Origin: Candidatus Moraniibacteriota bacterium
GTDB taxonomy: Bacteria; Patescibacteriota; Minisyncoccia; Moranbacterales; UBA2206
Length of the DNA: 64,000 nt
Direction of reading: 5' to 3'
Assembly (NCBI GenBank): GCA_026396175.1
Contig: JAPLXG010000012.1
Span: 19,360-83,359, forward strand
Shown here: in pieces, positions 425-56,419 of the stretch
How positions within the stretch are numbered: the first letter of the stretch is position 1
How the letters are laid out: each line of letters opens with the position of its first letter
Made by a program: the position numbers and the translations under genes
The notes under the pieces: generated by a model
What the model saw: only the letters and a program-made list of their open reading frames with translations
Database searches by the model: none
Told to the model about the DNA's origin: nothing

Positions 425-440
425 GAATTTTAAAAAGTAT

Positions 441-490
441 TTATTCGTATGTCCCCCTTTCGTAGTGGGGGTTCGCGAAGCGAAAAACAT
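441..490 (+). promoter_or_regulatory. Conserved roughly 48-nt two-helix leader motif, copy 1 (inner stem CCCCC/GGGGG, loop TTTCGTAGT)
   Basis: TTATTCGTATGT-CCCCC-TTTCGTAGT-GGGGG-TTCGCGAAGCGAAAAACAT ends right at the tsf ATG; 4 copies in the window with compensatory stem changes. Confidence 0.5.
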
Positions 491-3053: not shown

Positions 3054-3073
3054 CCTGCCTGCCGGTAGGCAGG
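3054..3073. repeat. 20-nt palindrome family member (CCTGCCTGCCGGTAGGCAGG) inserted in the T-loop of the disrupted outer tRNA-Thr
   Basis: Removing it restores a canonical 7-nt T-loop TTCAACT. Confidence 0.7.
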
Positions 3074-3096
3074 AACTCCGATCTTCGGCTCAAAAT

Positions 3097-3124
3097 CATG
3101 TAGCATATAACATGTAGCATATAA
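3097..3124. repeat. Tandem 14-mer direct repeat CATGTAGCATATAA x2, followed at 3148-3176 by a CATGTT-rich tract
   Basis: Exact tandem duplication; a related CATGTTTCATG...TTACATG tract recurs inside priA at 14201-14233. Confidence 0.6.
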
Positions 3125-3197
3125 CAGGACTCCTTAATGATTTTGTTACATGTTTCATGTTGCATGTTACATGCAGTGGGTCGGTGGCGGAGTGGTC

Positions 3198-3217
3198 CCT
3201 GCCTACTGGCAGGCAGG
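3198..3217. repeat. 20-nt palindrome family member (variant CCTGCCTACTGGCAGGCAGG) in the D-loop of the outer tRNA-Tyr copy
   Basis: Flanked by GGTC and AATCGCAGC, which are contiguous in the intact tRNA-Tyr. Confidence 0.65.
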
Positions 3218-3264
3218 AATCGCAGCTGACTGTAAATCAGCCGATTTCGGTCTACGGGCGCGCG

Positions 3265-3430
3265 TCCCTCACCAATTTCGAACATTTTAAAATTATTTAG
3301 GGCAGACAGGGATATGGGTCGGTGGCGGAGTGGTCAATCGCAGCTGACTGTAAATCAGCCGATTTCGGTCTACGGGGGTTCGAATCCCTCCCGGCCCACA
3401 AGGCTGTCCTAGTTCGAAATTGGTGAGGGA
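3265..3430. repeat. Perfect 19-bp inverted repeat (TCCCTCACCAATTTCGAAC at 3265-3283 / GTTCGAAATTGGTGAGGGA at 3412-3430) bracketing the intact tRNA-Tyr
   Basis: Exact reverse complements; the same architecture as at the tRNA-Thr locus. Confidence 0.8.
3316..3398 (+). tRNA. tRNA-Tyr (anticodon GUA), type II with long variable arm, intact
   Basis: Acceptor GGGTCGG/CCGGCCC (one G-U), anticodon stem GCTGA/TCAGC with loop CTGTAAA, long variable arm, T-arm GGGGG-TTCGAAT-CCCTC. Confidence 0.8.
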
Positions 3431-3461
3431 TGAAAATCCTTCCCGGCCCACATAATTTTAC

Positions 3462-3540: not shown

Positions 3541-3587
3541 AAAGGTCCCCTGCCTGCCGGCAGGCAGGGATTCCGGACAACGGCTCA
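3541..3587 (+). pseudogene. Partial duplicate of the tRNA-Thr(GGU) 3' portion; the 20-nt palindrome (3549-3568, perfect) replaces the 5' strand of the T-stem
   Basis: AAAGGTCC[CCTGCCTGCCGGCAGGCAGG]GATTCCGGACAACGGCTCA against the tRNA's AAAGGTCCGCAGTTCGATTCTGCGCAACGGCTCA. Confidence 0.55.
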
Positions 3588-3593
3588 TTATAA

Positions 3594-3660
3594 TTAGTAG
3601 CCAGTATCTAATATTTTGTATTTAGTATTTATACTAAATACCAGATACTAAATACCACAT
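3594..3660. repeat. GTATTTAGTAT-type imperfect palindromic repeat tract just upstream of rpmG
   Basis: CCAGTATCTAATATTTTGTATTTAGTATTTATACTAAATACCAGATACTAAATACC with 9-bp arms TATTTAGTA/TACTAAATA; the same short repeat recurs at 15371-15400, 22419-22443 and 14081-14134. Confidence 0.5.
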
Positions 3661-3668
3661 ACAAATAA

Positions 3669-10027: not shown

Positions 10028-10047
10028 AAATATTTAAGATTATTATT

Positions 10048-10096
10048 TTATTCGTATGTTCCGTTTTCGTAGTACGGGTTCGCGAAGCGAATAACA
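10048..10096 (+). promoter_or_regulatory. Conserved two-helix motif, copy 3 (inner stem TCCGT/ACGGG), located 3' of groES and not followed by a start codon
   Basis: TTATTCGTATGT-TCCGT-TTTCGTAGT-ACGGG-TTCGCGAAGCGAATAACA. Confidence 0.5.
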
Positions 10097-11900: not shown

Positions 11901-11929
11901 AGTTTTTATTTTTTTAGAGTTTATGTTAT

Positions 11930-12074
11930 GACTTACGCGTTCACCAAAAGCAATCTTCAAAGCGCGGGGTTCACTAGAGATGGGTACTGCTTATATCAGC
12001 CCCCAAGACTAAGAAATTTTTTCCAGACTAGTCTTGGCTATAGATAAGCTTGCTTTTGGCAAATGCGTAAGTCC
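11930..12074 (-). mobile_element. MITE-like element copy A (145 bp, roughly 30-bp terminal inverted repeats GACTTACGCGTT..CCAAAAGCAA) inserted between def and fmt
   Basis: Ends GACTTACGCGTTCACCAAAAGCAATCTT / AGCTTGCTTTTGGCAAATGCGTAAGTCC are inverted repeats. Near-identical ends occur at 46407-46551 and 56268-56413. Flanking TTATGTT on both sides may be a target-site duplication. Confidence 0.6.
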
Positions 12075-12082
12075 TTTATGTT

Positions 12083-12532: not shown

Positions 12533-14581
12533 CTAAATAATTGAAATTGGATCAATATCGATGACCCAGCCGGTTGGCAAAGATTTGAGAATAATTAGAA
12601 TTTCCTTAGGCAGTTGCTTTTGAAATTTCAAAAGCATTTGTCGGCGATATCTTCCTCGAATTTTTGGCACAAAAGAGTCGGTCGGTACACTTATTTTTAA
12701 ATCAGCCTTTTCTTTAATTAAAAGATTATACACCCTGTCTGATTCCACTGCAACCCTTTTTTGATTATAATCCTCAAAGACCAGTTTAGCAATTTTTCCA
12801 AAAGGAGGATAGCCTAAAAGTTTTCGATCAGGTAATTCTTGCTCATAGAAAGCCGGGTAATTATTTTGAGCAATCAGTGTGAGAATTTTATTTTCCGGGT
12901 GATAGGTTTGGATAATGATTCGGCCAGGAAATTTCGCGCCAGGGCGAGATACGCGACCAGATAATTGGACTAGGTCCTGCCAGGCCTTTTCACTGACCCG
13001 AAAATCCGGGAGCGTGAGCATATTGTCAGCATCAATCACTCCAACTAGACTCATCTTTGGTAAATCCCAGCCCTTAGTGATCATTTGCGTGCCGATGAGG
13101 ATGTCAATTTCTCCGCGAGAAAATTTTTCATAGGCTGTTTTTTGGAAATCTTTTTCTTTGTTTGCGGTTGAATCTAGGCGCAAAATTCTCGCTCCTGGAA
13201 AAAAATCGCGCACCTCTTTTTCCACTTTTTGCGTTCCCAGACCAACATTGCGAAATTCAATCCCATGGCATTTTGAGCAATTGGGAATAGCGCTGGCAAC
13301 AAAAGCACAATGCGGACATTTATATTCTCTTGAATTAGTATAGATAAGAGCGCGGTCACAGAGTGGACATTTGAGCACAGTTTTGCAATTAGTACAGACG
13401 GAAAAATTACTCATTCCCTGGCGATTAATGAATAAAATAGATTGCAAGTTATTTTTCAGCGCGTAGGCAATTTCACTTTTTAGTTTTTTGCTGATGCAAG
13501 AATAATTTCTCGCCCAGCGTTCTTTTTTCATATCAACCAGCTCAATTGTGCTGCGTACTTTTTGGGTGGTGACATTTTTTGGATGATAGGAATCGCTCAG
13601 AGTCAATAATTTATATTGCTTATATTGAGTTTTAAAATAAGTTTCAATGCTCGGCGTAGCTGATCCGTGGATAAGTTTGCATTTATACAATTCGGACAAT
13701 TTTTCAGCGACAGTTCGGGCGTCATAGCGTGGGTTCATATCCCATTGCTTGAATGACATATCTTGTTCTTCATCAATCACGATCAAAGCTAATTTTTGAA
13801 ATGGCGCGAAAACAGACATCCTGGTACCAATAATAATTTTTGCTTCGCCTGATTTTATCTTTTGCCAATTTGTGAAATAGACACCCTTAGAAAGATTGCT
13901 GCTGAGAAGGGCAATTTCATTTTCAGGAAAATAGGCGCCATATCTTTCCAGCGCTTGCGGAGTCAAAGTTTTTTCCGGCACTAAAATCAAAAATTGACTT
14001 TGGGGATTTTGCTTTTTGAGTTCCAAGATGGAGTGAATGTAGACTTCTGTTTTGCCCGAACCCGCCGGACCATGGAGGAGGTATCTGGTATTTTGCCTGC
14101 CTGCCGGCGAGGCAGGTATTTGGTATCTGATATCTTGCTTTGCAATATTTTTCACTGTAGCTTCTTGTTCAGCTGTTAGAATTATTGTATTTATATTTTT
14201 TGTTTCATGTTTCATATTATATGTTACATGATCAGCGCTTCGCGATTTCGTTCTCTTAGGCACAAAATTCTTCAAAACTACCCCGAGCGAGATGACGTAA
14301 TAATCTGAAATATATTTTGCAAGGGCTAATTGCTCCTTTGTGAGAAAATTTGGCTCCAAAACTTTTTCAATTTTTTTGAGCGTAATTCCGCCAACGCGGG
14401 GAAAATCATTTTTACTTTCAATCACGATTCCTTCTACGGTTTTTCTGAAAAGGGGAATGCTGACTAGCGTTCCGACGGGCAATTTTTCATCAGCGAGATA
14501 ATAGAAAAACTGGTCACGAGAAAGAAGAATCCTGACAAGAGGAGTGATACTGAGGATGAATTGAGTCTGTTTTTTGTTCAT
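12533..14581 (-). CDS. priA: Primosomal protein N' (PriA helicase) carrying in-frame repeat-derived insertions
   Basis: Walker A GPAGSGKT, DEEQD box, Cys4 zinc-binding region (CTNCKTVLKCPLCD...CPHCAF...CSKCHG). The linker before Walker A contains DHVTYNMKHET and RYQIPASPAGRQNTRY encoded by dispersed repeats. Confidence 0.9.
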   Translation of the reverse strand: MNKKQTQFILSITPLVRILLSRDQFFYYLADEKLPVGTLVSIPLFRKTVEGIVIESKNDFPRVGGITLKKIEKVLEPNFLTKEQLALAKYISDYYVISLGVVLKNFVPKRTKSRSADHVTYNMKHETKNINTIILTAEQEATVKNIAKQDIRYQIPASPAGRQNTRYLLHGPAGSGKTEVYIHSILELKKQNPQSQFLILVPEKTLTPQALERYGAYFPENEIALLSSNLSKGVYFTNWQKIKSGEAKIIIGTRMSVFAPFQKLALIVIDEEQDMSFKQWDMNPRYDARTVAEKLSELYKCKLIHGSATPSIETYFKTQYKQYKLLTLSDSYHPKNVTTQKVRSTIELVDMKKERWARNYSCISKKLKSEIAYALKNNLQSILFINRQGMSNFSVCTNCKTVLKCPLCDRALIYTNSREYKCPHCAFVASAIPNCSKCHGIEFRNVGLGTQKVEKEVRDFFPGARILRLDSTANKEKDFQKTAYEKFSRGEIDILIGTQMITKGWDLPKMSLVGVIDADNMLTLPDFRVSEKAWQDLVQLSGRVSRPGAKFPGRIIIQTYHPENKILTLIAQNNYPAFYEQELPDRKLLGYPPFGKIAKLVFEDYNQKRVAVESDRVYNLLIKEKADLKISVPTDSFVPKIRGRYRRQMLLKFQKQLPKEILIILKSLPTGWVIDIDPISII
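14081..14134. repeat. 20-nt-palindrome family copy (CCTGCCTGCCGGCGAGGCAGG, 14096-14116) flanked by GTATCTGGTATTT/GTATTTGGTATCT repeats, lying in-frame inside priA
   Basis: The reverse strand translates as DIRYQIPASPAGRQNTRYL immediately N-terminal to the Walker A motif. Confidence 0.7.
14201..14233. repeat. CATGTT repeat tract (TGTTTCATGTTTCATATTATATGTTACATGATC) in-frame inside priA
   Basis: Encodes DHVTYNMKHET on the priA strand; a related tract lies at 3148-3176 next to the tRNA cluster. Confidence 0.55.
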
Positions 14582-14828: not shown

Positions 14829-15371
14829 ATGAAACGAAAAATATATATTACTATCAATCTTGCCAGCCAAATCAGGCGCCGGCTCATAAAAAGCTGTGAG
14901 AAGTGGCGAGATTTGCCTGTGAAGTGGACTAAGGAGGAAAACTTGAACATCAGCCTGTTTTTTCTGGGCTATATCGACAATGACGTCGTGGCTGACGCTT
15001 GCCAAAAAGTGCGCGAAGCAGTCAGTGAAATTGAGCTTTTTGATCTGGAATTTGAAAAAATAATCCTTGCTCCAGACGTTGAAAATCCACAAGAATTTCG
15101 CGTAATCGGAAAATCAAGCGAAAAACTAAGAATCCTTTGCGAAGCGATTGAGAAAGAATTAGAAATTTTTGTCGCATCCAAAAAAGTTTTTTCTCCGCAT
15201 ATCACTTTGGGAAAAATCAGAAAAGAAAAGTGGGAAGAATTGAAAAACGTACCAGAAGTGAATGAAAAAGCTTCCTTCGCGGTCGGCGTCGAAGCGGTCG
15301 ACATTATGGCCAGCCACTTTGGTGAGGGGAAAAATAATTTTGTTTTGATTGAAAGTTGTCCGCTGAAATAG
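14829..15371 (+). CDS. 2H phosphoesterase family protein (LigT/ThpR-like RNA 2',3'-cyclic phosphodiesterase)
   Basis: HITLGK (H-x-T-x motif) and the overall size; the first motif is degenerate (NISLFFLG). Start moved to ATG 14829 to clear the tRNA. Confidence 0.55.
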   Translation: MKRKIYITINLASQIRRRLIKSCEKWRDLPVKWTKEENLNISLFFLGYIDNDVVADACQKVREAVSEIELFDLEFEKIILAPDVENPQEFRVIGKSSEKLRILCEAIEKELEIFVASKKVFSPHITLGKIRKEKWEELKNVPEVNEKASFAVGVEAVDIMASHFGEGKNNFVLIESCPLK

Positions 15372-15400
15372 TATGCGGTATTTAGTATTTGGTATCTTGT

Positions 15401-16126
15401 ATGAAAAAAGAGTGTAAAATTCTAGATGTGATGGTAGATAATCTTTCCAGAAAAGAAATACTTGAGAAAGTCGGGAATTTTTTGAGTGAAGATAAATTCC
15501 ATCAAATTGCAACTGTCAATCCGGAGTTTATCTTGGAAGCGCAAAATAATTCTGAGTTCAAAAATATTCTCAATAGTTGCGCGCTGAATGTGGCGGATGG
15601 TTTTGGTATCCGGTGTGCTTTTTGGCGTTATGGCTGGCACTTGAAAACCAGGATGGCCGGAGCAGATCTGATGCAAGAAATCCTAAAAATCGCTGAGCAA
15701 AAAAACCTGAAAATATTTTTGGCCATAAATAAAGATGGCCTGAGTAGTTTCGAAGAGATAAGTGCAGTTATCTTGAAAAAATATCCAGACCTGCGGATTG
15801 AAGGGATGAATTTGGACAAAAATACTATTCACTGTTCACTGCTCACTGATCCCTGCATCCTGTTTTGCAACTTTGGCGCTCCACACCAAGAAATCTTCCT
15901 TAATTCCCAAAAAGATGCTAAAATACGACTAGCAATGGGCGTGGGCGGATCCTTTGATTTTTTGACCAAAAAAATCAGACGCGCCCCGGTTTTTATGCGA
16001 AGAATCGGCCTCGAATGGCTTTGGCGAGTGGCTCAATCGCAGACCTGGGAGTTCAAGAAAAAACGGCTAAAAAGAATTTGGAAAGCAGTGGTAGTTTTTC
16101 CAATTAAAGTAATTTTAACCCCGTAA
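15401..16126 (+). CDS. WecB/TagA/CpsF family glycosyltransferase
   Basis: Family hallmarks ...NPEFILEA..., GADLM, C-terminal GLEWLWRV; start at ATG 15401. Confidence 0.8.
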   Translation: MKKECKILDVMVDNLSRKEILEKVGNFLSEDKFHQIATVNPEFILEAQNNSEFKNILNSCALNVADGFGIRCAFWRYGWHLKTRMAGADLMQEILKIAEQKNLKIFLAINKDGLSSFEEISAVILKKYPDLRIEGMNLDKNTIHCSLLTDPCILFCNFGAPHQEIFLNSQKDAKIRLAMGVGGSFDFLTKKIRRAPVFMRRIGLEWLWRVAQSQTWEFKKKRLKRIWKAVVVFPIKVILTP

Positions 16127-21750: not shown

Positions 21751-23004
21751 CTATTTTTTCTTTGAATAGTATTCTTTCAAAAGCTCTCCCGAAACTTTAC
21801 GCAATTTTTCGAGAACCTTCTTTAGCTTTGCCACGAAAATAACCAATTCTTTTTTAGTTGTATATTTTCCCAGCGTAACGCGCAGTGACCCGTGGGCTTG
21901 TTCTGGTTTTAGCCCAAGTGCCAGCAGGACGTGCGATGGACTGAGTGAGCCAGAAGAGCAGGCGGAGCCAGTGGAAACAGCGATGCCTTCAGCGTCGAGG
22001 TAAAGCAGAAGACTCTCCCCTTCCACATCAGAAAAACTAAAGTTGGCATTGTTGGGCGATCTTTTTGAACGTGAGCCATTCAGGCGAACGCTAGGAATTT
22101 CTTTTAATACTTTTTTAATCAAATAATCTCGCAGTTCTTTGATTTTTTTAATCTCTTTTTGCTTGTTTTTTTCCAAGACTTCGATGGCTTTACCTAGTCC
22201 GATAATGCCAGTTGAGTTGAGTGTGCCGGCGCGCAGAGCAAATTCTTGCGCCCCACCATCTTGGATTTGAGTGATTTTTGTGCCCTTTTTGACCAGTAGC
22301 ATTCCCACACCTTTTGGCCCATAGATCTTATGCGATGACATAGAAAGCAAATCAACACCCAATCTTTTGACGTTTATGTCAAAATAGGCTACGGCTTGTG
22401 TTGCGTCAGTGTGGAATAGTATCTGGTATTTAGTATCTAGTAACTTGGAATTATGCTTTTTTATGACTTTTCCGATCTGAGCAATTGGCTGTACTGTTCC
22501 AATTTCATTATTAACATACATAACTGTTACGAGAAGCGTGTTTTCCTTGATTGCTTTTTCTAGGTCAGATACCTTAATAATTCCATCAGAATAAACCGGG
22601 AGGTAGGTCACTTCAGCGCTCCCCTCTTTTTCTAGTTTCTGGCAAGTCTTGAGCACGCAACTATGTTCAAAAACAGTTGTGATGATATGTGGTTTTTTCC
22701 CACTATTTTTTTTATTCTTATTGTACGCACGAAGTACGCCTTTGATGGCGAGATTATTTGATTCGGTTGCGCCACTGGTGAAAATAATTTCTTCCGAGGT
22801 GCATTTGAAAAAACAGGCCGCACTTTCTCTCGCCGCGGTAACTGCATCGGCCGCGTTTCGTCCAAAAGAGTGAAGAGATGAGGCATTGCCAAACTCCGAA
22901 CTAAAATATGGCAACATTGTTTTTAGCACTTCAGCGTCAACTGGCGTTGTCGCCGCATAATCTAGATATATTTTTCCGCCTCGGGCGGAATTATTCATTT
23001 CCAT
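21751..23004 (-). CDS. iscS: Cysteine desulfurase IscS/NifS (class V aminotransferase) with a short in-frame repeat-derived insertion
   Basis: PLP-lysine motif SSHKIYGPKG, C-terminal active-site loop SACSS. LLDTKYQI before the FHTDATQ motif is encoded by a GTATCTGGTATTTAGTATCTAG repeat. Confidence 0.9.
   Translation of the reverse strand: MEMNNSARGGKIYLDYAATTPVDAEVLKTMLPYFSSEFGNASSLHSFGRNAADAVTAARESAACFFKCTSEEIIFTSGATESNNLAIKGVLRAYNKNKKNSGKKPHIITTVFEHSCVLKTCQKLEKEGSAEVTYLPVYSDGIIKVSDLEKAIKENTLLVTVMYVNNEIGTVQPIAQIGKVIKKHNSKLLDTKYQILFHTDATQAVAYFDINVKRLGVDLLSMSSHKIYGPKGVGMLLVKKGTKITQIQDGGAQEFALRAGTLNSTGIIGLGKAIEVLEKNKQKEIKKIKELRDYLIKKVLKEIPSVRLNGSRSKRSPNNANFSFSDVEGESLLLYLDAEGIAVSTGSACSSGSLSPSHVLLALGLKPEQAHGSLRVTLGKYTTKKELVIFVAKLKKVLEKLRKVSGELLKEYYSKKK
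22419..22443. repeat. GTATCTGGTATTTAGTATCTAG short repeat in-frame inside iscS
   Basis: Same repeat family as 14081-14134, 15371-15400 and 3594-3660. Confidence 0.5.
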
Positions 23005-25115: not shown

Positions 25116-25130
25116 ACTTTATCAATATCC

Positions 25131-25284
25131 CCTTCTCCCTTAGGGAGAAGGTGGCTGAAAGCCGGATGAGGGAGAAGCCTTTCGATAATTGGCCATTTAC
25201 TTATTTACTCAGCATTTTTCTTTTTATCAACGCCCTTTCCCTCACCTGTCACGAGTACGTGACATCCTCTCCCTAAGGGAGAGG
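25131..25284. repeat. Pair of related palindromic hairpins (CCTTCTCCCTTAGGGAGAAGG at 25131-25151; CCTCTCCCTAAGGGAGAGG at 25266-25284) bracketing roughly 115 bp between convergent genes
   Basis: Each is self-complementary and they are near reverse complements of each other; the interior holds GTCACGAGTACGTGAC and a CCCTTTCCCTCACC motif. Confidence 0.55.
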
Positions 25285-25289
25285 AGGAC

Positions 25290-31909: not shown

Positions 31910-32110
31910 AAATATAAATAATAATTAGTTAGCTTGAATTATGCTTTGCGCGTTTTCTATTCACGCCACCATGCTCTTTTGAAAAAATTTGAAATTTGAA
32001 ATTCTAAATTTTAATTCAAATCTAAATTACTAAATTTTTAATCATCAATTAGTTATTTGAACATTTAATCATTTGGCCTTGATTTCAAATTTTAAATTTA
32101 GAATTTAAAA

Positions 32111-32518
32111 TTACTTGATGCACGTCTTATCCGCCACTCTCCCCTGCTTCAGTGCATCATCGAGACTGGAAAAACAGACGAGATTTGCTGGTTTGATCCG
32201 TTTGGCGAACGAGCAGGTTGGCAAATGCACTTTGTTTGAATTTTTACTCCCGACATAGTTGCAATTAGGGGCTAAATTCTTCGTTTCTGCGGGGTTTTGG
32301 GTGATTTCCGGGGTAGCTGCACCTGCCACAGCTTGGGCGTTTTCTGAGTCAATTTTGGCCATTTCAGTCGTTTTTTCAATCACAATTGCCTTTGTTTGGC
32401 CTTTTTTTCCTTCGACATAGCCGAATTGGAAGGAAATGAGCGCCACTAAGACAAATCCGGTCACCAGCACCAGTTTCATTTCATGTTCGATTAGAAAACT
32501 TTTGATCTTACCCATCAA
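32111..32518 (-). CDS. Hypothetical membrane-anchored protein with C-terminal Cys-containing domain
   Basis: ORF with N-terminal TM helix; C-terminal CNYVG...HLPTCSFAKR...VCF. Confidence 0.4.
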   Translation of the reverse strand: MMGKIKSFLIEHEMKLVLVTGFVLVALISFQFGYVEGKKGQTKAIVIEKTTEMAKIDSENAQAVAGAATPEITQNPAETKNLAPNCNYVGSKNSNKVHLPTCSFAKRIKPANLVCFSSLDDALKQGRVADKTCIK

Positions 32519-35859: not shown

Positions 35860-35895
35860 GGGGACTAAGTCCCGAAGCTTCGGGACTTAGTCCCC
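35860..35895. repeat. 36-nt perfect palindrome GGGGACTAAGTCCCGAAGC|TTCGGGACTTAGTCCCC (18-bp stem, no loop)
   Basis: Exact self-complement between the rplI start and the ctpA stop. Confidence 0.7.
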
Positions 35896-44848: not shown

Positions 44849-45021
44849 GGAGTTCTCTACGAATTACGAATTTGTACGAATATACGAATGTACAAATTCA
44901 AAAACGAATTAACAATTTATTAATGTAATTATAGCATACTATTTCAAGGTTGCAGAAGAAAATCAAAAGCTTTACGAAAAATCAAATTTAGACTATACTG
45001 AGATTAGTTTAATTAGCCTAA

Positions 45022-45070
45022 ATTATTCGTATGTCCCCCGTTCGTAATGGGGGTTCGCGAAGCAAATAAC
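45022..45070 (+). promoter_or_regulatory. Conserved two-helix leader motif, copy 4 (inner stem CCCCC/GGGGG, loop GTTCGTAAT), ending 1 nt before ATG 45072
   Basis: TTATTCGTATGT-CCCCC-GTTCGTAAT-GGGGG-TTCGCGAAGCAAATAAC. Confidence 0.5.
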
Positions 45071-45071
45071 T

Positions 45072-45360: not shown

Positions 45361-45394
45361 TAATTCGCCTGCCTGCCGGCAGGCAGGTAATTCG
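45361..45394. mobile_element. 20-nt perfect palindrome CCTGCCTGCCGGCAGGCAGG (45368-45387) flanked by a perfect 7-bp direct repeat TAATTCG (target-site duplication)
   Basis: TAATTCG|CCTGCCTGCCGGCAGGCAGG|TAATTCG read directly. Confidence 0.7.
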
Positions 45395-46406: not shown

Positions 46407-46551
46407 GGACTTACGTGTTTGCCAAAAGCAAGCTTTTCTATAGCCAAGATTAGCCTAAGGAAACTCCCATGATTCTAGGGACTAATATGGGCAAAGACAG
46501 GCCCTAAGTAACCACGCGCTTTAAAGATTGTTTTTGGTAAATACGTAAGTC
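46407..46551 (+). mobile_element. MITE-like element copy B (145 bp)
   Basis: GGACTTACGTGTTTGCCAAAAGCAAGCTT ... CTTTAAAGATTGTTTTTGGTAAATACGTAAGTC terminal inverted repeats; between the GT2 and GT4 genes. Confidence 0.6.
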
Positions 46552-50061: not shown

Positions 50062-50279
50062 GGGACTTACGCATTTAAATTAATTTGTCATCCTGAGCAA
50101 ATCCGCCAACTGGCGGAGAAGTCGAAGGATCTATTTTCCATTATCGTAAGCCCTGCTATTAAGTAGAAAACTCTGGGTTACGGTTAGCAGATCCTTCGAC
50201 TGCGTCCTGAGTACAGGACTTCGCTCAGGATGACAGGGCTTGGTTGTTTTTGAGCAAACGCATAAGGTCATAGCATAGC
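50062..50279. repeat. Highly structured 218-bp intergenic element with nested 12-bp inverted repeats; termini resemble the MITE family (diverged variant)
   Basis: GTCATCCTGAGC/GCTCAGGATGAC and GTCGAAGGATCT/AGATCCTTCGAC inverted repeats, central GTCCTGAGTACAGGAC hairpin; ends GGACTTACGCATTT ... AAACGCATAAGGTC. Confidence 0.4.
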
Positions 50280-56250: not shown

Positions 56251-56267
56251 AGCTTAGTTCTAATTTA

Positions 56268-56413
56268 GGACTTACGCGTTTGCCAAAAGCAAGCTTATCT
56301 ATAGCCAAGGCTAGTCCGAAAAAGTTTATTAGCATTAGAGGTTGATATGAACAGTAATAAACTCTAGCAAACCCCTCAGCTTTCAAAGATTGCTTTTGGT
56401 GAACGCGTAAGTC
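56268..56413 (+). mobile_element. MITE-like element copy C (146 bp)
   Basis: GGACTTACGCGTTTGCCAAAAGCAAGCTTATCTATAGCCAAGG ... CTTTCAAAGATTGCTTTTGGTGAACGCGTAAGTC; roughly 27/30 terminal inverted repeat match. Confidence 0.65.
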
Positions 56414-56419
56414 TTACAA

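What the first reader, a model, noticed from the sequence alone, without database searches (positions are those of the whole stretch)
14081..14134. Palindromic element copy inserted in-frame in priA, adding about 19 codons immediately before the Walker A motif
The priA strand of 14081-14134 translates DIRYQIPASPAGRQNTRYL, with the 20-nt palindrome encoding PASPAGR; it is flanked by permuted GTATCTGGTATTT / GTATTTGGTATCT repeats and is followed by LLHGPAGSGKT. A second repeat-derived tract (14201-14233, CATGTT repeats) encodes DHVTYNMKHET about 12 codons upstream. The reading frame is preserved, so PriA is probably still functional and tolerates repeat-encoded peptide insertions in the linker between its N-terminal DNA-binding region and the helicase core. 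In-frame tolerance of a selfish palindromic element is known for Rickettsia RPEs; it is not described for this kind of element.
Basis: partly seen in the sequence, partly recalled or inferred. Interest (0 to 1): 0.7.

Follow-up and report, generated by a model that had tools for sequence, protein, structure and literature searches.

The report
Tiny palindrome inserted in-frame in priA
A 21-base, frame-preserving copy of a 20-base GC-rich palindrome that is scattered through many bacterial phyla sits inside the essential replication-restart gene priA of a Moranbacteria genome, adding seven amino acids to a floppy loop without breaking the gene, and the same thing has happened many separate times in priA and other housekeeping genes.

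Summary
priA (12533-14581, minus strand) is an intact 682-codon ORF. Positions 14096-14116 hold CCTGCCTCGCCGGCAGGCAGG, which encodes PASPAGR 11 codons before GSGKT.

Three corrections apply. The palindrome is 21 nt, a 20-nt consensus plus one bulged C. The insertion proper is exactly 7 codons. The flanking GTATCTG/GTATTTG repeats are an older, in-phase array of 7-nt repeats, not ends of the element.

Ortholog DNA shows a clean 21-nt indel, and the closest PriA relatives lack it. AlphaFold places it in a disordered loop between the first helicase helix and the Walker A strand. dN/dS of about 0.1 indicates a working gene.

The 20-mer CCTGCCTGCCGGCAGGCAGG occurs in at least 120 species genomes across many phyla, and also in phage contigs. 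It has unrelated flanks and no target duplication, and it is depleted from ORFs. The 21-nt variant lies in long ORFs as often as random positions do, in all six frames, in genes such as RecG, RecN, Pol I, Mur ligase and LepA. Among 120 Moranbacteria-type PriAs, 16 carry it in two or three hot-spot loops, almost all as independent events.

Best reading: a selfish micro-palindrome tolerated in-frame. How it moves is unknown. Small palindromes in-frame in repair genes have precedents (RPE, intragenic REPs).

The parts
12533..14581 (-). priA (primosomal protein N'), an intact 682-codon ORF that hosts the insertion
   Evidence: ORF listed. It is 100% identical to an NCBI Moranbacteria PriA, with precomputed Pfam domains PriA_3primeBD, DEAD/ResIII, Helicase_C and PriA_C. 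E. coli and K. pneumoniae PriA structures match at E 1e-79 to 5e-84. dN/dS is about 0.1 against P0002.
14096..14116 (-). 21-nt imperfect palindrome CCTGCCTCGCCGGCAGGCAGG, encoding PASPAGR (residues 156-162). It is the frame-preserving variant of the 20-nt family. The insertion boundaries are ambiguous by one C (14095-14115 is equally valid).
   Evidence: Exact match. A 21-nt gap in P0003 and P0004 DNA, with the same 21 nt in P0002. It is the core of the longest identical nucleotide run between the Q and P0002 genes.
14117..14136 (-). Heptamer array on the 5' side of the palindrome in the gene (AAGATAT CAGATAC CAAATA-), encoding part of QDIRYQI
   Evidence: The array continues in phase once the 21 nt are removed. 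The same heptamer family is found at 3604-3662, 15371-15397 and 22419-22431.
14081..14095 (-). Heptamer array on the 3' side of the palindrome (C AAAATAC CAGATAC), encoding QNTRY and running into beta-strand YLLHG
14048..14071 (-). Walker A / P-loop, GPAGSGKT (residues 171-178)
   Evidence: Translation. These columns are invariant in alignment A1. They align to the GSGKT of E. coli PriA.
14201..14233 (-). Second in-frame heptamer tract (CATGTAA CATATAA TATGAAA CATGAAA), encoding DHVTYNMKHET, in the hypervariable inter-domain linker
   Evidence: The model has pLDDT below 50 for residues 112-131. The same heptamer family is intergenic at 3090-3175.
13565..13585 (-). Third variable loop of PriA (residues 333-339). 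It is empty in this genome but is a hot spot for the same palindrome in other PriAs.
   Evidence: pLDDT below 50. Palindrome peptides occur in this region in P0045, P0052, P0062 and P0108.
3054..3073 (.). Intergenic copy of the 20-nt palindrome (1 mismatch), downstream of tRNA-Thr(tgt)
3198..3217 (.). 20-nt palindrome copy (2 mismatches) inserted in the D-loop of a degenerate duplicate of tRNA-Tyr
   Evidence: It is an exact 20-nt insertion relative to the intact tRNA-Tyr at 3316-3399, with 21 nt and 41 nt of identical flank and no target duplication.
3549..3568 (.). Perfect intergenic copy of the 20-nt palindrome, downstream of tRNA-Thr(ggt)
45368..45387 (.). Perfect intergenic copy of the 20-nt palindrome, about 20 nt upstream of an ATG and flanked on both sides by TAATTCG
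3593..3666 (.). Intergenic inverted arrays of the same ATAC-type heptamers that flank the palindrome in priA
   Evidence: (I9).
3090..3175 (.). Intergenic inverted arrays of the CATGTAR heptamer family that also forms the second priA tract

Best explanation
Positions 14096-14116 hold a 21-nt, stop-codon-free, frame-preserving copy of a very small GC-rich palindromic repeat. The repeat's consensus is the 20-mer CCTGCCTGCCGGCAGGCAGG, and it is dispersed in this genome and across many bacterial phyla and phages.

Shown:
- The copy landed inside a pre-existing in-phase array of 7-nt repeats. That array forms a disordered surface loop of PriA between the first helix of helicase lobe 1 and the beta-strand leading into the Walker A P-loop.
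- The 21 nt contain no stop codon in any frame, and the loop is unstructured, so the gene still encodes a working PriA with seven extra residues (PASPAGR).
- The conserved unit is the DNA (or RNA) palindrome, not the peptide. The same 21-mer is read in all six frames in other genes, and its nucleotides are conserved between two priA lineages whose synonymous sites are otherwise saturated.
- 20-nt copies are removed from coding DNA, while 21-nt copies are not.
- Insertion leaves no target-site duplication. Insertions are enriched in heptamer arrays, in the loops of other hairpins and in tRNA loops.
- Insertions recur independently in the same PriA loops.

Inferred:
- The palindrome is a selfish or neutral passenger, copied into single-stranded or slipped DNA by an unidentified trans-acting activity, or by template switching or gene conversion between similar heptamer arrays.
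- It has no role in PriA function.
For: - Family membership: four further copies of the 20-mer lie in the window, all non-coding.
- Lineage-specific insertion: ortholog DNA shows a clean 21-nt indel. The nearest PriA relatives lack it. Filled and empty pairs across the family differ by exactly 7 residues.
- Recurrence: 9 carriers at this loop need at least 9 changes on the tree, and 7 carriers at another loop need at least 6. Different frames and orientations were verified in DNA for P0045, P0052 and P0096.
- Frame filter: the exact 20-mer has at least 100 open codons on both sides at 4% of sites, against 37% for random positions. The 21-nt variant does so at 36% against 38%. All six reading frames are seen. 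Hosts include a Mur ligase, Pol I 5'-3' exonuclease, a LepA-type GTPase, an M17 peptidase, RecG and RecN.
- Not chance: at least 120 species genomes carry the 20-mer with unrelated flanks. It hits 35 viral contigs, against 0 for two composition-matched controls.
- No target-site duplication: the tRNA-Tyr fragment carries an exact 20-nt insertion.
- Target bias: period-7 repeats occur at 5.5% of sites against 0.2% of random positions, and hairpins across the junction at 9.2% against 2.9%.
- DNA-level conservation: the longest identical run between the Q and P0002 priA genes (29 nt) is the palindrome plus one heptamer. All 6 shared codons are identical, against 46% elsewhere at four-fold or more degenerate sites (P about 0.009).
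- Tolerated location: pLDDT is below 50 for residues 151-162, between helix 137-147 and strand 166-170. E. coli PriA has a loop of about 10 residues there.
- Gene functional: dN 0.134, dS 1.39, and all helicase and Cys-rich motif columns are invariant.
Against: - No enzyme, donor copy or transposition intermediate was identified, so 'mobile' rests on comparative patterns only.
- About 85-90% of 20-mer sites show neither heptamers nor hairpins, so the target rule is weak.
- Q and P0002 share the same 21-nt variant at the same site but are not sisters on the NJ tree. This needs either two identical insertions, exchange of the segment, or several precise losses, and I cannot tell which.
- Nucleotide conservation of the palindrome could reflect a function rather than recent arrival.
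- The 20-mer and 21-mer surveys used different collections and both were capped at 120 rows, so relative abundances are unknown.
- Translation through the insert has not been observed directly.
Confidence: 0.78

Rival explanations
1. The palindrome was recruited for a function at the nucleic-acid level. Examples would be an mRNA hairpin that paces translation just before the P-loop folds, or a DNA site bound by a conserved protein. Under this view it is kept by selection in priA and other replication and repair genes.
For: Its nucleotides are conserved between Q and P0002 beyond the synonymous expectation. The 20-mer is identical across phyla. Insertions recur in the same loops of PriA. Many hosts are DNA-metabolism genes, echoing intragenic REPs in repair genes.
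Against: The nearest relatives do without it, and carriers are scattered singly on the tree. It sits in at least three or four different loops and in many unrelated proteins, in either orientation. The hairpin energy in context is unremarkable: -13.1 kcal/mol, z = -1.6. Coding occupancy of the 21-mer equals that of random positions, which looks neutral rather than targeted.
Confidence: 0.1
2. The sequence is not an insertion from elsewhere. It arose locally by replication slippage or hairpin-primed synthesis in a simple-repeat context, since (CCTG)2CC/GG(CAGG)2 is low complexity. Its occurrence in other genomes is convergence.
For: The palindrome is built from two CCTG and two CAGG units. It sits inside a slippage-prone heptamer array. 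Heptamer arrays themselves turn over very fast: P0003 and P0012 are 96% identical yet differ by 7 residues here.
Against: The 65-80% GC 20-mer has no similarity to the AT-rich heptamers around it. The identical 20- or 21-mer is found with unrelated flanks in hundreds of contigs from many phyla. Two equally simple control palindromes are absent from the viral collection. Genome-specific variants are shared between copies within one gene (P0096).
Confidence: 0.05
3. PASPAGR and the surrounding residues are an ancestral part of the Moranbacteria PriA loop that has been lost in many lineages, not an insertion.
For: PASPAG occurs at the same alignment position in P0002, P0049 and P0089, which are 54-79% identical to the query.
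Against: On the tree, 9 carriers need at least 9 state changes, and each carrier's nearest neighbours lack it. The same DNA occurs outside priA in this window. The palindrome's synonymous sites are not diverged although dS is about 1.4. The other loops carry the same 21 nt in other frames.
Confidence: 0.04
4. It is an assembly or sequencing artefact, or priA here is a pseudogene.
For: The source is a metagenome-assembled genome, and palindromes can cause chimeric joins.
Against: The ORF is intact, with all motifs present and dN/dS about 0.1. The same insertion occurs in an independent sample (P0002 from SRR22388314). The 20-mer also occurs in cultured isolates. The contrast between 20 nt and 21 nt in coding DNA is a signature of selection, not of artefact.
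Confidence: 0.02

Closest known systems
Rickettsia palindromic elements (RPE; Ogata et al. 2000, from memory; mentioned in PMC3733652)
   Same: Selfish palindromic repeats inserted in-frame in genes that stay functional. The insertions fall in surface or loop regions and occur in many unrelated housekeeping proteins.
   Different: RPE-1 is about 100-150 bp and confined to Rickettsia. This element is 20-21 bp, adds only 7 residues, and its exact sequence is shared across phyla and phages.
Intragenic REPs of the GTAG- and CGTC-tagged families (Di Nocera et al. 2013, PMC3733652)
   Same: Palindromes of 20-40 bp, mostly extragenic. A minority lie inside ORFs, notably in replication and repair genes. 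CGTC REPs have no known transposase.
   Different: No GTAG or CGTC tag, or any other conserved flank, is seen here; the only bias is A at position -1. This is a perfect loop-less 20-mer rather than a stem-loop with a tail. A dedicated 21-nt coding-compatible variant exists, and the distribution is cross-phylum at low copy number.
Cyanobacterial small dispersed repeats (SDR) with STRR heptamer arrays (Elhai et al. 2008, Genome Res 18:1484). Details are from memory because the paper is not held; it is cited in PMC5861425.
   Same: Very small (21-27 nt) palindromic repeats inferred to be mobile. They are found inserted in tandem heptamer repeats and nested in other repeats, with no known machinery.
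   Different: SDRs were reported only in Nostocaceae and, as far as I recall, essentially in non-coding DNA. I could not compare the sequences. Here the element is in Patescibacteria and many other phyla, and inside essential genes.
Tandem heptanucleotide repeats in bacteria (Mrazek 2007 as cited in MacGregor 2015, PMC4679880)
   Same: Genome-specific 7-nt tandem repeats, mostly intergenic and close to start codons. They are occasionally inside ORFs, where three units make a 7-residue peptide repeat.
   Different: Those reports do not link the arrays to an embedded palindrome or to hot-spot loops of a conserved helicase.
GC clusters of yeast mitochondrial DNA, for example in var1 (from memory)
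   Same: GC-rich palindromes spreading in an AT-rich compact genome, sometimes in-frame in a protein gene.
   Different: They are organellar, longer (about 30-50 bp) and lineage-restricted.

Membership tests
PriA (primosomal protein N') - host gene | N-terminal 3'-DNA-binding domain, SF2 helicase core with Walker A and B, Cys-rich zinc region, and PriA C-terminal domain | tested here: met
   Precomputed Pfam domains PF17764, PF00270/PF04851, PF00271 and PF18074. GSGKT, DEEQD and eight Cys columns are invariant in A1. E = 5e-84 to E. coli PriA 6DCR.
Rickettsia palindromic elements (RPE) | Palindromic repeat of about 100-150 bp (RPE-1), restricted to Rickettsia | tested here: not met
   The element is 20-21 bp. 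The host is a Moranbacteria MAG.
Rickettsia palindromic elements (RPE) | In-frame insertion in functional genes at tolerated positions | tested here: met
REP / REPIN (GTAG- or CGTC-tagged) | Conserved GTAG or CGTC tetranucleotide at one end of the palindrome | tested here: not met
   The flank composition of 163 sites shows no conserved tetranucleotide, only A (41%) at position -1. The window copies have unrelated flanks.
REP / REPIN (GTAG- or CGTC-tagged) | Associated RAYT (Y1 transposase) gene in the genome | not tested
   Only 64 kb of the genome was available, and no systematic domain scan of the window ORFs was run.
REP / REPIN (GTAG- or CGTC-tagged) | Predominantly extragenic, often as inverted dimers | tested here: inconclusive
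   The 20-mer is mostly non-coding, but dimers are rare (L035, L253). The 21-mer is as often coding as random positions are.
MITE | Terminal inverted repeats around an internal segment (over 50 bp), with a fixed-length target-site duplication | tested here: not met
   The element consists only of a 20-bp palindrome. The tRNA-Tyr insertion is clean, with no duplication. An exact 7-bp flank repeat occurs at only 4.3% of sites.
Cyanobacterial SDR (very small mobile repeated elements) | 21-27 nt imperfect palindromes, dispersed, inserted in tandem heptamer repeats or nested in other repeats | tested here: met
   Size 20-21 nt. Period-7 arrays are enriched about 27-fold at insertion sites. Nesting occurs in other hairpins (L023, L071) and possibly within itself (P0017).
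Cyanobacterial SDR (very small mobile repeated elements) | Sequence identity to SDR1-8 and restriction to Nostocaceae | not testable with these tools
   The defining paper is not held. The restriction to Nostocaceae, as stated in PMC5861425, is not met by this element's distribution.

The most novel reading that the evidence does not exclude
CCTGCCTGCCGGCAGGCAGG is an undescribed mobile DNA element of only 20 bp that crosses phylum boundaries: Patescibacteria, Bacteroidota, Omnitrophota, Planctomycetota, Proteobacteria and phages. It inserts without target duplication into single-stranded loops such as heptamer arrays, hairpin loops and tRNA D- or variable loops. A 21-nt, stop-free derivative of it has become a seven-codon cassette able to colonise essential genes of gene-dense genomes, hitting the same protein loops repeatedly. 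Heptamer arrays and this palindrome may be products of one unknown copy-and-paste machinery.
Probability: 0.4. Interest if true: 0.85.

Novelty: new variant of a known kind. Interest (0 to 1): 0.68.

Why it matters
For priA itself the insertion is probably harmless. The case nevertheless gives a clean natural experiment on a repeat only 20-21 bp long.
- There are filled and empty orthologous sites, and a frame-dependent survival filter (20 nt against 21 nt).
- Independent hits recur in the same disordered loops of an essential helicase.
- The sequence is identical in distant phyla and in phages.

If the element is truly mobile, it is among the smallest known. It would also explain part of the short, odd peptide insertions that litter proteins of Candidate Phyla Radiation genomes, which affect annotation, alignment and structure prediction.

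It makes a long-standing question testable: how very small palindromic repeats and heptamer arrays spread without an obvious transposase. The tests would be phylogenetic profiling against candidate enzymes and population-level detection of insertion polymorphisms.

Tried and rejected
- **Literature search for the sequence.** Full-text searches for the 20-mer and for a 14-nt core found nothing. Keyword searches for palindromic insertions in CPR or Patescibacteria found nothing specific.
- **Elhai 2008 SDR paper.** It is not held under its DOI or PMC id, so the SDR comparison rests on memory and on a citing paper.
- **Rfam.** At gathering thresholds only five tRNAs were found in the window, with no family for the palindrome or the repeats.
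- **Transposon-like model with a 7-bp target-site duplication.** It was suggested by TAATTCG at 45361/45388 and by several other loci. I rejected it as a general rule. The tRNA-Tyr insertion has no duplication, only 4.3% of sites have a 7-bp flank repeat, and those are explained by insertion into heptamer arrays.
- **Idea that the heptamer flanks plus palindrome form one mobile composite.** The same composite occurs at a different priA loop in P0045. However, P0045's nearest neighbour already has the heptamers without the palindrome, so the arrays are older. The question is left open.
- **Single shared ancestral insertion in Q and P0002.** The NJ trees do not support it, but it is not excluded. 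The trees are distance-based, and P0002's nearest neighbour by distance is Q.
- **DNA for P0025 and P0089.** It could not be fetched, so those insertions are known from the peptides only.
- **ORFs of a phage contig with six copies.** I listed them to look for an enzyme. The list was uninformative without domain scans and was not pursued.
- **GC-rich hairpin scan of the window.** It found only 10 hairpins, all non-coding, so priA is the only coding case in these 64 kb.
Full report
**1. What is in the sequence**

priA is a single uninterrupted ORF on the minus strand, 12533-14581, of 682 codons. It is 100% identical to an NCBI protein named primosomal protein N' from a Candidatus Moranbacteria MAG. 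It carries the full PriA domain set and matches solved E. coli and K. pneumoniae PriA structures at E = 1e-79 to 5e-84.

The minus strand of 14134-14081 reads DIRYQIPASPAGRQNTRY and continues LLHGPAGSGKT. The palindrome is at 14096-14116: CCTGCCTCGCCGGCAGGCAGG, 21 nt.

Four more copies lie in the window, and all are non-coding. They are 20 nt long with consensus CCTGCCTGCCGGCAGGCAGG, at 3054, 3198, 3549 and 45368. The priA copy therefore differs from the family by one extra C, which makes it seven codons.

The sequences on either side are in-phase 7-nt repeats: AAGATAT CAGATAC CAAATAC | 21 nt | AAAATAC CAGATAC. This is a heptamer family that also forms intergenic arrays at 3593-3666, 15364-15399 and 22412-22447.

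Its family is intergenic at 3090-3175.

**2. It is an insertion, and it is seven codons**

I aligned 31 related PriAs and the DNA of three orthologues.
- P0003 and P0004 have the heptamer array but a clean 21-nt gap where the palindrome sits.
- P0002 has the same 21 nt at the same place.
- The closest relatives of the query (P0007, P0008 and P0005; 84-87% identity outside the linker) have a short loop (G-x-DKFLLFGP) with neither heptamers nor palindrome.

Relative to those relatives the query has about 13-14 extra codons: seven from the palindrome and seven from one extra 21-nt block of heptamers.

**3. The gene works and the site is tolerant**

Against P0002, dN = 0.134 and dS = 1.39. All helicase and Cys-rich motif columns are invariant.

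An AlphaFold2 model (mean pLDDT 80, pTM 0.81) has just three internal segments with pLDDT below 50:
- residues 112-131, the CATGT tract;
- residues 151-162, which read DIRYQIPASPAG;
- residues 333-339.

The palindrome loop joins helix 137-147 to strand 166-170, which leads into the P-loop. E. coli PriA has a loop of about 10 residues there.

**4. The conserved thing is the DNA**

Between the query and P0002, only 46% of codons for identical residues at four-fold or more degenerate sites are the same. All six shared palindrome codons are identical (P about 0.009). The longest identical nucleotide run in the 2049-nt gene, 29 nt, is the palindrome plus one heptamer.

Yet the two proteins are not sisters on distance trees.

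**5. Recurrent hits in PriA**

Sixteen of the 120 best PriA matches carry peptides derived from the palindrome.
- Nine have it at this same loop: PASPAG[R/K/G], LPAGRQG, PPAGGQ and PVSPAGE.
- Seven have it between roughly 120 and 210 residues after the Walker A motif. This span covers the third variable loop (about residues 324-340) and a site between MKKERW and NYSCISKKL.

Parsimony needs at least 9 changes for the 9 carriers at the first loop, and at least 6 changes for the other 7. Each carrier's nearest neighbours lack the insert. Filled and empty pairs differ by exactly seven residues.

DNA confirms three cases:
- P0045 has the bulged 21-mer read as LPRRQAS, flanked by the same ATAC heptamers but in another loop.
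- P0052 has it in the opposite orientation, read as LPAGEAG.
- P0096 has two copies of a variant 20-mer (CCTGCCTGCCGGTAGGCAAG). At the pre-Walker-A copy the frame is kept by an adjacent extra G. The second copy was not examined at codon level.

The frame is thus restored in at least two ways, and copies within one genome share private variants.

**6. The heptamer arrays are genome-specific and dispersed**

In the genome of P0091, the priA loop is built from AAATTGT/AAATTGA heptamers. These recur as inverted arrays in an intergenic spacer 10 kb away. A second family, AGGAATT, occurs twice more inside the same priA.

P0003 and P0012 are 96% identical outside the linker, yet they differ there by a 7-residue block. 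These loops therefore turn over quickly.

**7. The palindrome is far more widespread than this genome**

These include many Patescibacteria lineages, Bacteroidota (including cultured Winogradskyella, Flagellimonas, Longitalea and Flavivirga), Omnitrophota, Planctomycetota, Bdellovibrionales, Gamma- and Deltaproteobacteria, Thermodesulfovibrio and Chloroflexi. The flanks are unrelated.

It is also in 35 stretches of viral contigs. Two composition-matched control palindromes gave no hit there.

Across 163 sites compared with 3260 random positions:
- period-7 repeats span the junction at 5.5% of sites against 0.2% of random positions;
- an exact 7-bp repeat flanks 4.3% against 0.2%;
- a hairpin of at least 6 bp spans the junction at 9.2% against 2.9%;
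- the base before the element is A in 41% of cases and T in 9%.

The copy at 3198 is an exact 20-nt insertion in the D-loop of a degenerate tRNA-Tyr duplicate, with no target duplication.

The same position, at the 3' end of the D-loop, is hit in tRNA sequences of other phyla (L019, L041, L089, L103, L278). L019 and L041, like L110 and L034 (hit at other tRNA positions), are 5' tRNA fragments lying upstream of an intact copy. One phage tRNA-Met keeps the palindrome as a long variable arm.

**8. The frame filter**

A 19-nt core of the bulged 21-mer hits at least 120 metagenome contigs; this scan was also capped.

The 21-mer has at least 100 open codons on both sides at 36% of sites, the same as random positions in those contigs (38%). 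The 20-mer does so at 4% against 37%.

All six frames occur: PASPAGR, LPRRQAG, CLAGRQ, LPAGEAG, CLPARQ and PACRRGR. Hosts confirmed by Pfam include a Mur ligase, Pol I 5'-3' exonuclease, a LepA-type GTPase, an M17 aminopeptidase, RecG and RecN. By eye from conserved motifs, others look like PheT, IleS, LeuS and a second RecG.

This contrast is what selection on reading frame predicts. It argues against an artefact and against a protein-level role for the peptide.

**9. Interpretation**

The priA feature is a tolerated, frame-preserving copy of a very small dispersed palindrome, lodged in a heptamer-built disordered loop.

The mechanism of spread is inferred, not shown. The patterns are a clean insertion without duplication, a preference for slipped or hairpin-prone DNA and tRNA loops, sharing of variants within a genome, and the same sequence in phages. 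These fit copying into single-stranded DNA by a trans-acting activity, or template switching between similar arrays.

A nucleic-acid-level function is not excluded. Patchy presence, many host proteins, both orientations and an unremarkable hairpin energy in context (z = -1.6) make it less likely.

**10. Comparison with what is known**

In-frame selfish palindromes are known as Rickettsia RPEs. Small GTAG- and CGTC-tagged REPs have been reported inside ORFs, many in replication and repair genes (PMC3733652). Very small palindromic repeats associated with heptamer arrays were described in Nostocaceae as SDRs (cited; details from memory). Heptamer tandem repeats are a known bacterial feature (PMC4679880).

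This element fails the defining features of RPE (size, host), tagged REPs (no tag) and MITEs (no TIR-plus-TSD architecture). It behaves most like an SDR.

Four things appear to be new: the cross-phylum identity of a 20-bp unit, the 21-nt coding-compatible form, recurrent hits in the same loops of essential proteins, and tRNA-loop insertions. I could not find the sequence in the literature held here, but that is not proof that it is undescribed.

Noticed in passing
window 3170-3460: Complex tRNA-Tyr locus. A degenerate 5' copy of tRNA-Tyr carries the palindrome in its D-loop and CGCGCG in place of the T-loop. An intact tRNA-Tyr (3316-3399) follows, then a 3' fragment (TCCTTCCCGGCCCAC). An 18-nt inverted repeat, CCCTCACCAATTTCGAAC / GTTCGAAATTGGTGAGGG (3267-3284 / 3413-3430), brackets the intact gene. 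It looks like the remnant of an integration or replacement event.
   Followed up: partly
L019, L041, L110, L034 (genome loci), L271, L278 (viral loci): In unrelated phyla the same 20-mer sits in 5' fragments of tRNA genes that lie 50-280 nt upstream of an intact copy of the same tRNA. In L271, a 92-nt tRNA-Met is still called by ARAGORN with the palindrome serving as a long variable arm.
   Followed up: partly
window 11927-12075, 46407-46551, 56266-56416: A MITE-like element of about 150 nt with roughly 28-nt terminal inverted repeats (GACTTACGCGTT.ACCAAAAGCAA.CTT). One copy expands the def-fmt spacer to about 180 nt, where relatives have 18-26 nt (L003, L125).
   Followed up: partly
window 434-489, 1901-1956, 10041-10096, 45016-45071: Four copies of a 56-nt repeat (ATTCGTATGTCCC....TTCGTAGT..GGGTTCGCGAAGCGAATAACA) with compensatory-looking changes in an internal stem. 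It could be a small structured RNA or a regulatory site. No Rfam match was found at gathering thresholds.
   Followed up: no
window 15824-15856 and 31985-32113: Further heptamer arrays. One (ACTATTC ACTGTTC ACTGCTC ACTGATC) lies inside the WecG/TagA-type glycosyltransferase ORF (15389-16126). Inverted arrays of AAATTTG-type heptamers lie at 31985-32017 and 32082-32113.
   Followed up: no
window 25129-25153, 25263-25287, 35860-35895, 50086-50235: Other GC-rich palindromes: CCCCTTCTCCCTTAGGGAGAAGG (two copies), a perfect 36-nt palindrome GGGGACTAAGTCCCGAAGCTTCGGGACTTAGTCCCC, and a 47-nt-arm inverted repeat containing GTCATCCTGAGC...GAAGGATCT motifs. Similar motifs (CCGCCAGCTGGCGG, CCCTCTCC..GGAGAGGG) turn up next to the 20-mer in other phyla (L015, L020, L084). 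This suggests a wider set of shared small palindromes.
   Followed up: no
PriA proteins P0005-P0008, P0010, P0011, P0013; P0049, P0051; P0027, P0030, P0043, P0046, P0060, P0067, P0076, P0086, P0104, P0116: Other recurrent repeat-looking peptides occur in the same PriA linkers: PSFAKATAGKQ (GC-rich DNA in L125), PPKAD(R/Q)P(L/R)A(D/E)K, and SSPEGRGG / SPEYRGGG. These are probably in-frame copies of further dispersed repeat families.
   Followed up: partly
L267, L274, L275 (IMGVR_UViG_3300037242_000417) and L253: One 29.5-kb viral contig carries at least six copies of the 20-mer, each nested in longer contig-specific repeats. L253 has two copies only 33 nt apart.
   Followed up: no
PriA P0017 (aa ~349) and P0007 (aa ~350): P0017 reads LPARLPAGRQGRQG (14 extra residues), which looks like a palindrome copy inserted into another copy. 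P0007, the query's nearest relative, has LPAGRHG between MKKERW and NYSC, although it lacks the insert at the Walker A loop.
   Followed up: no
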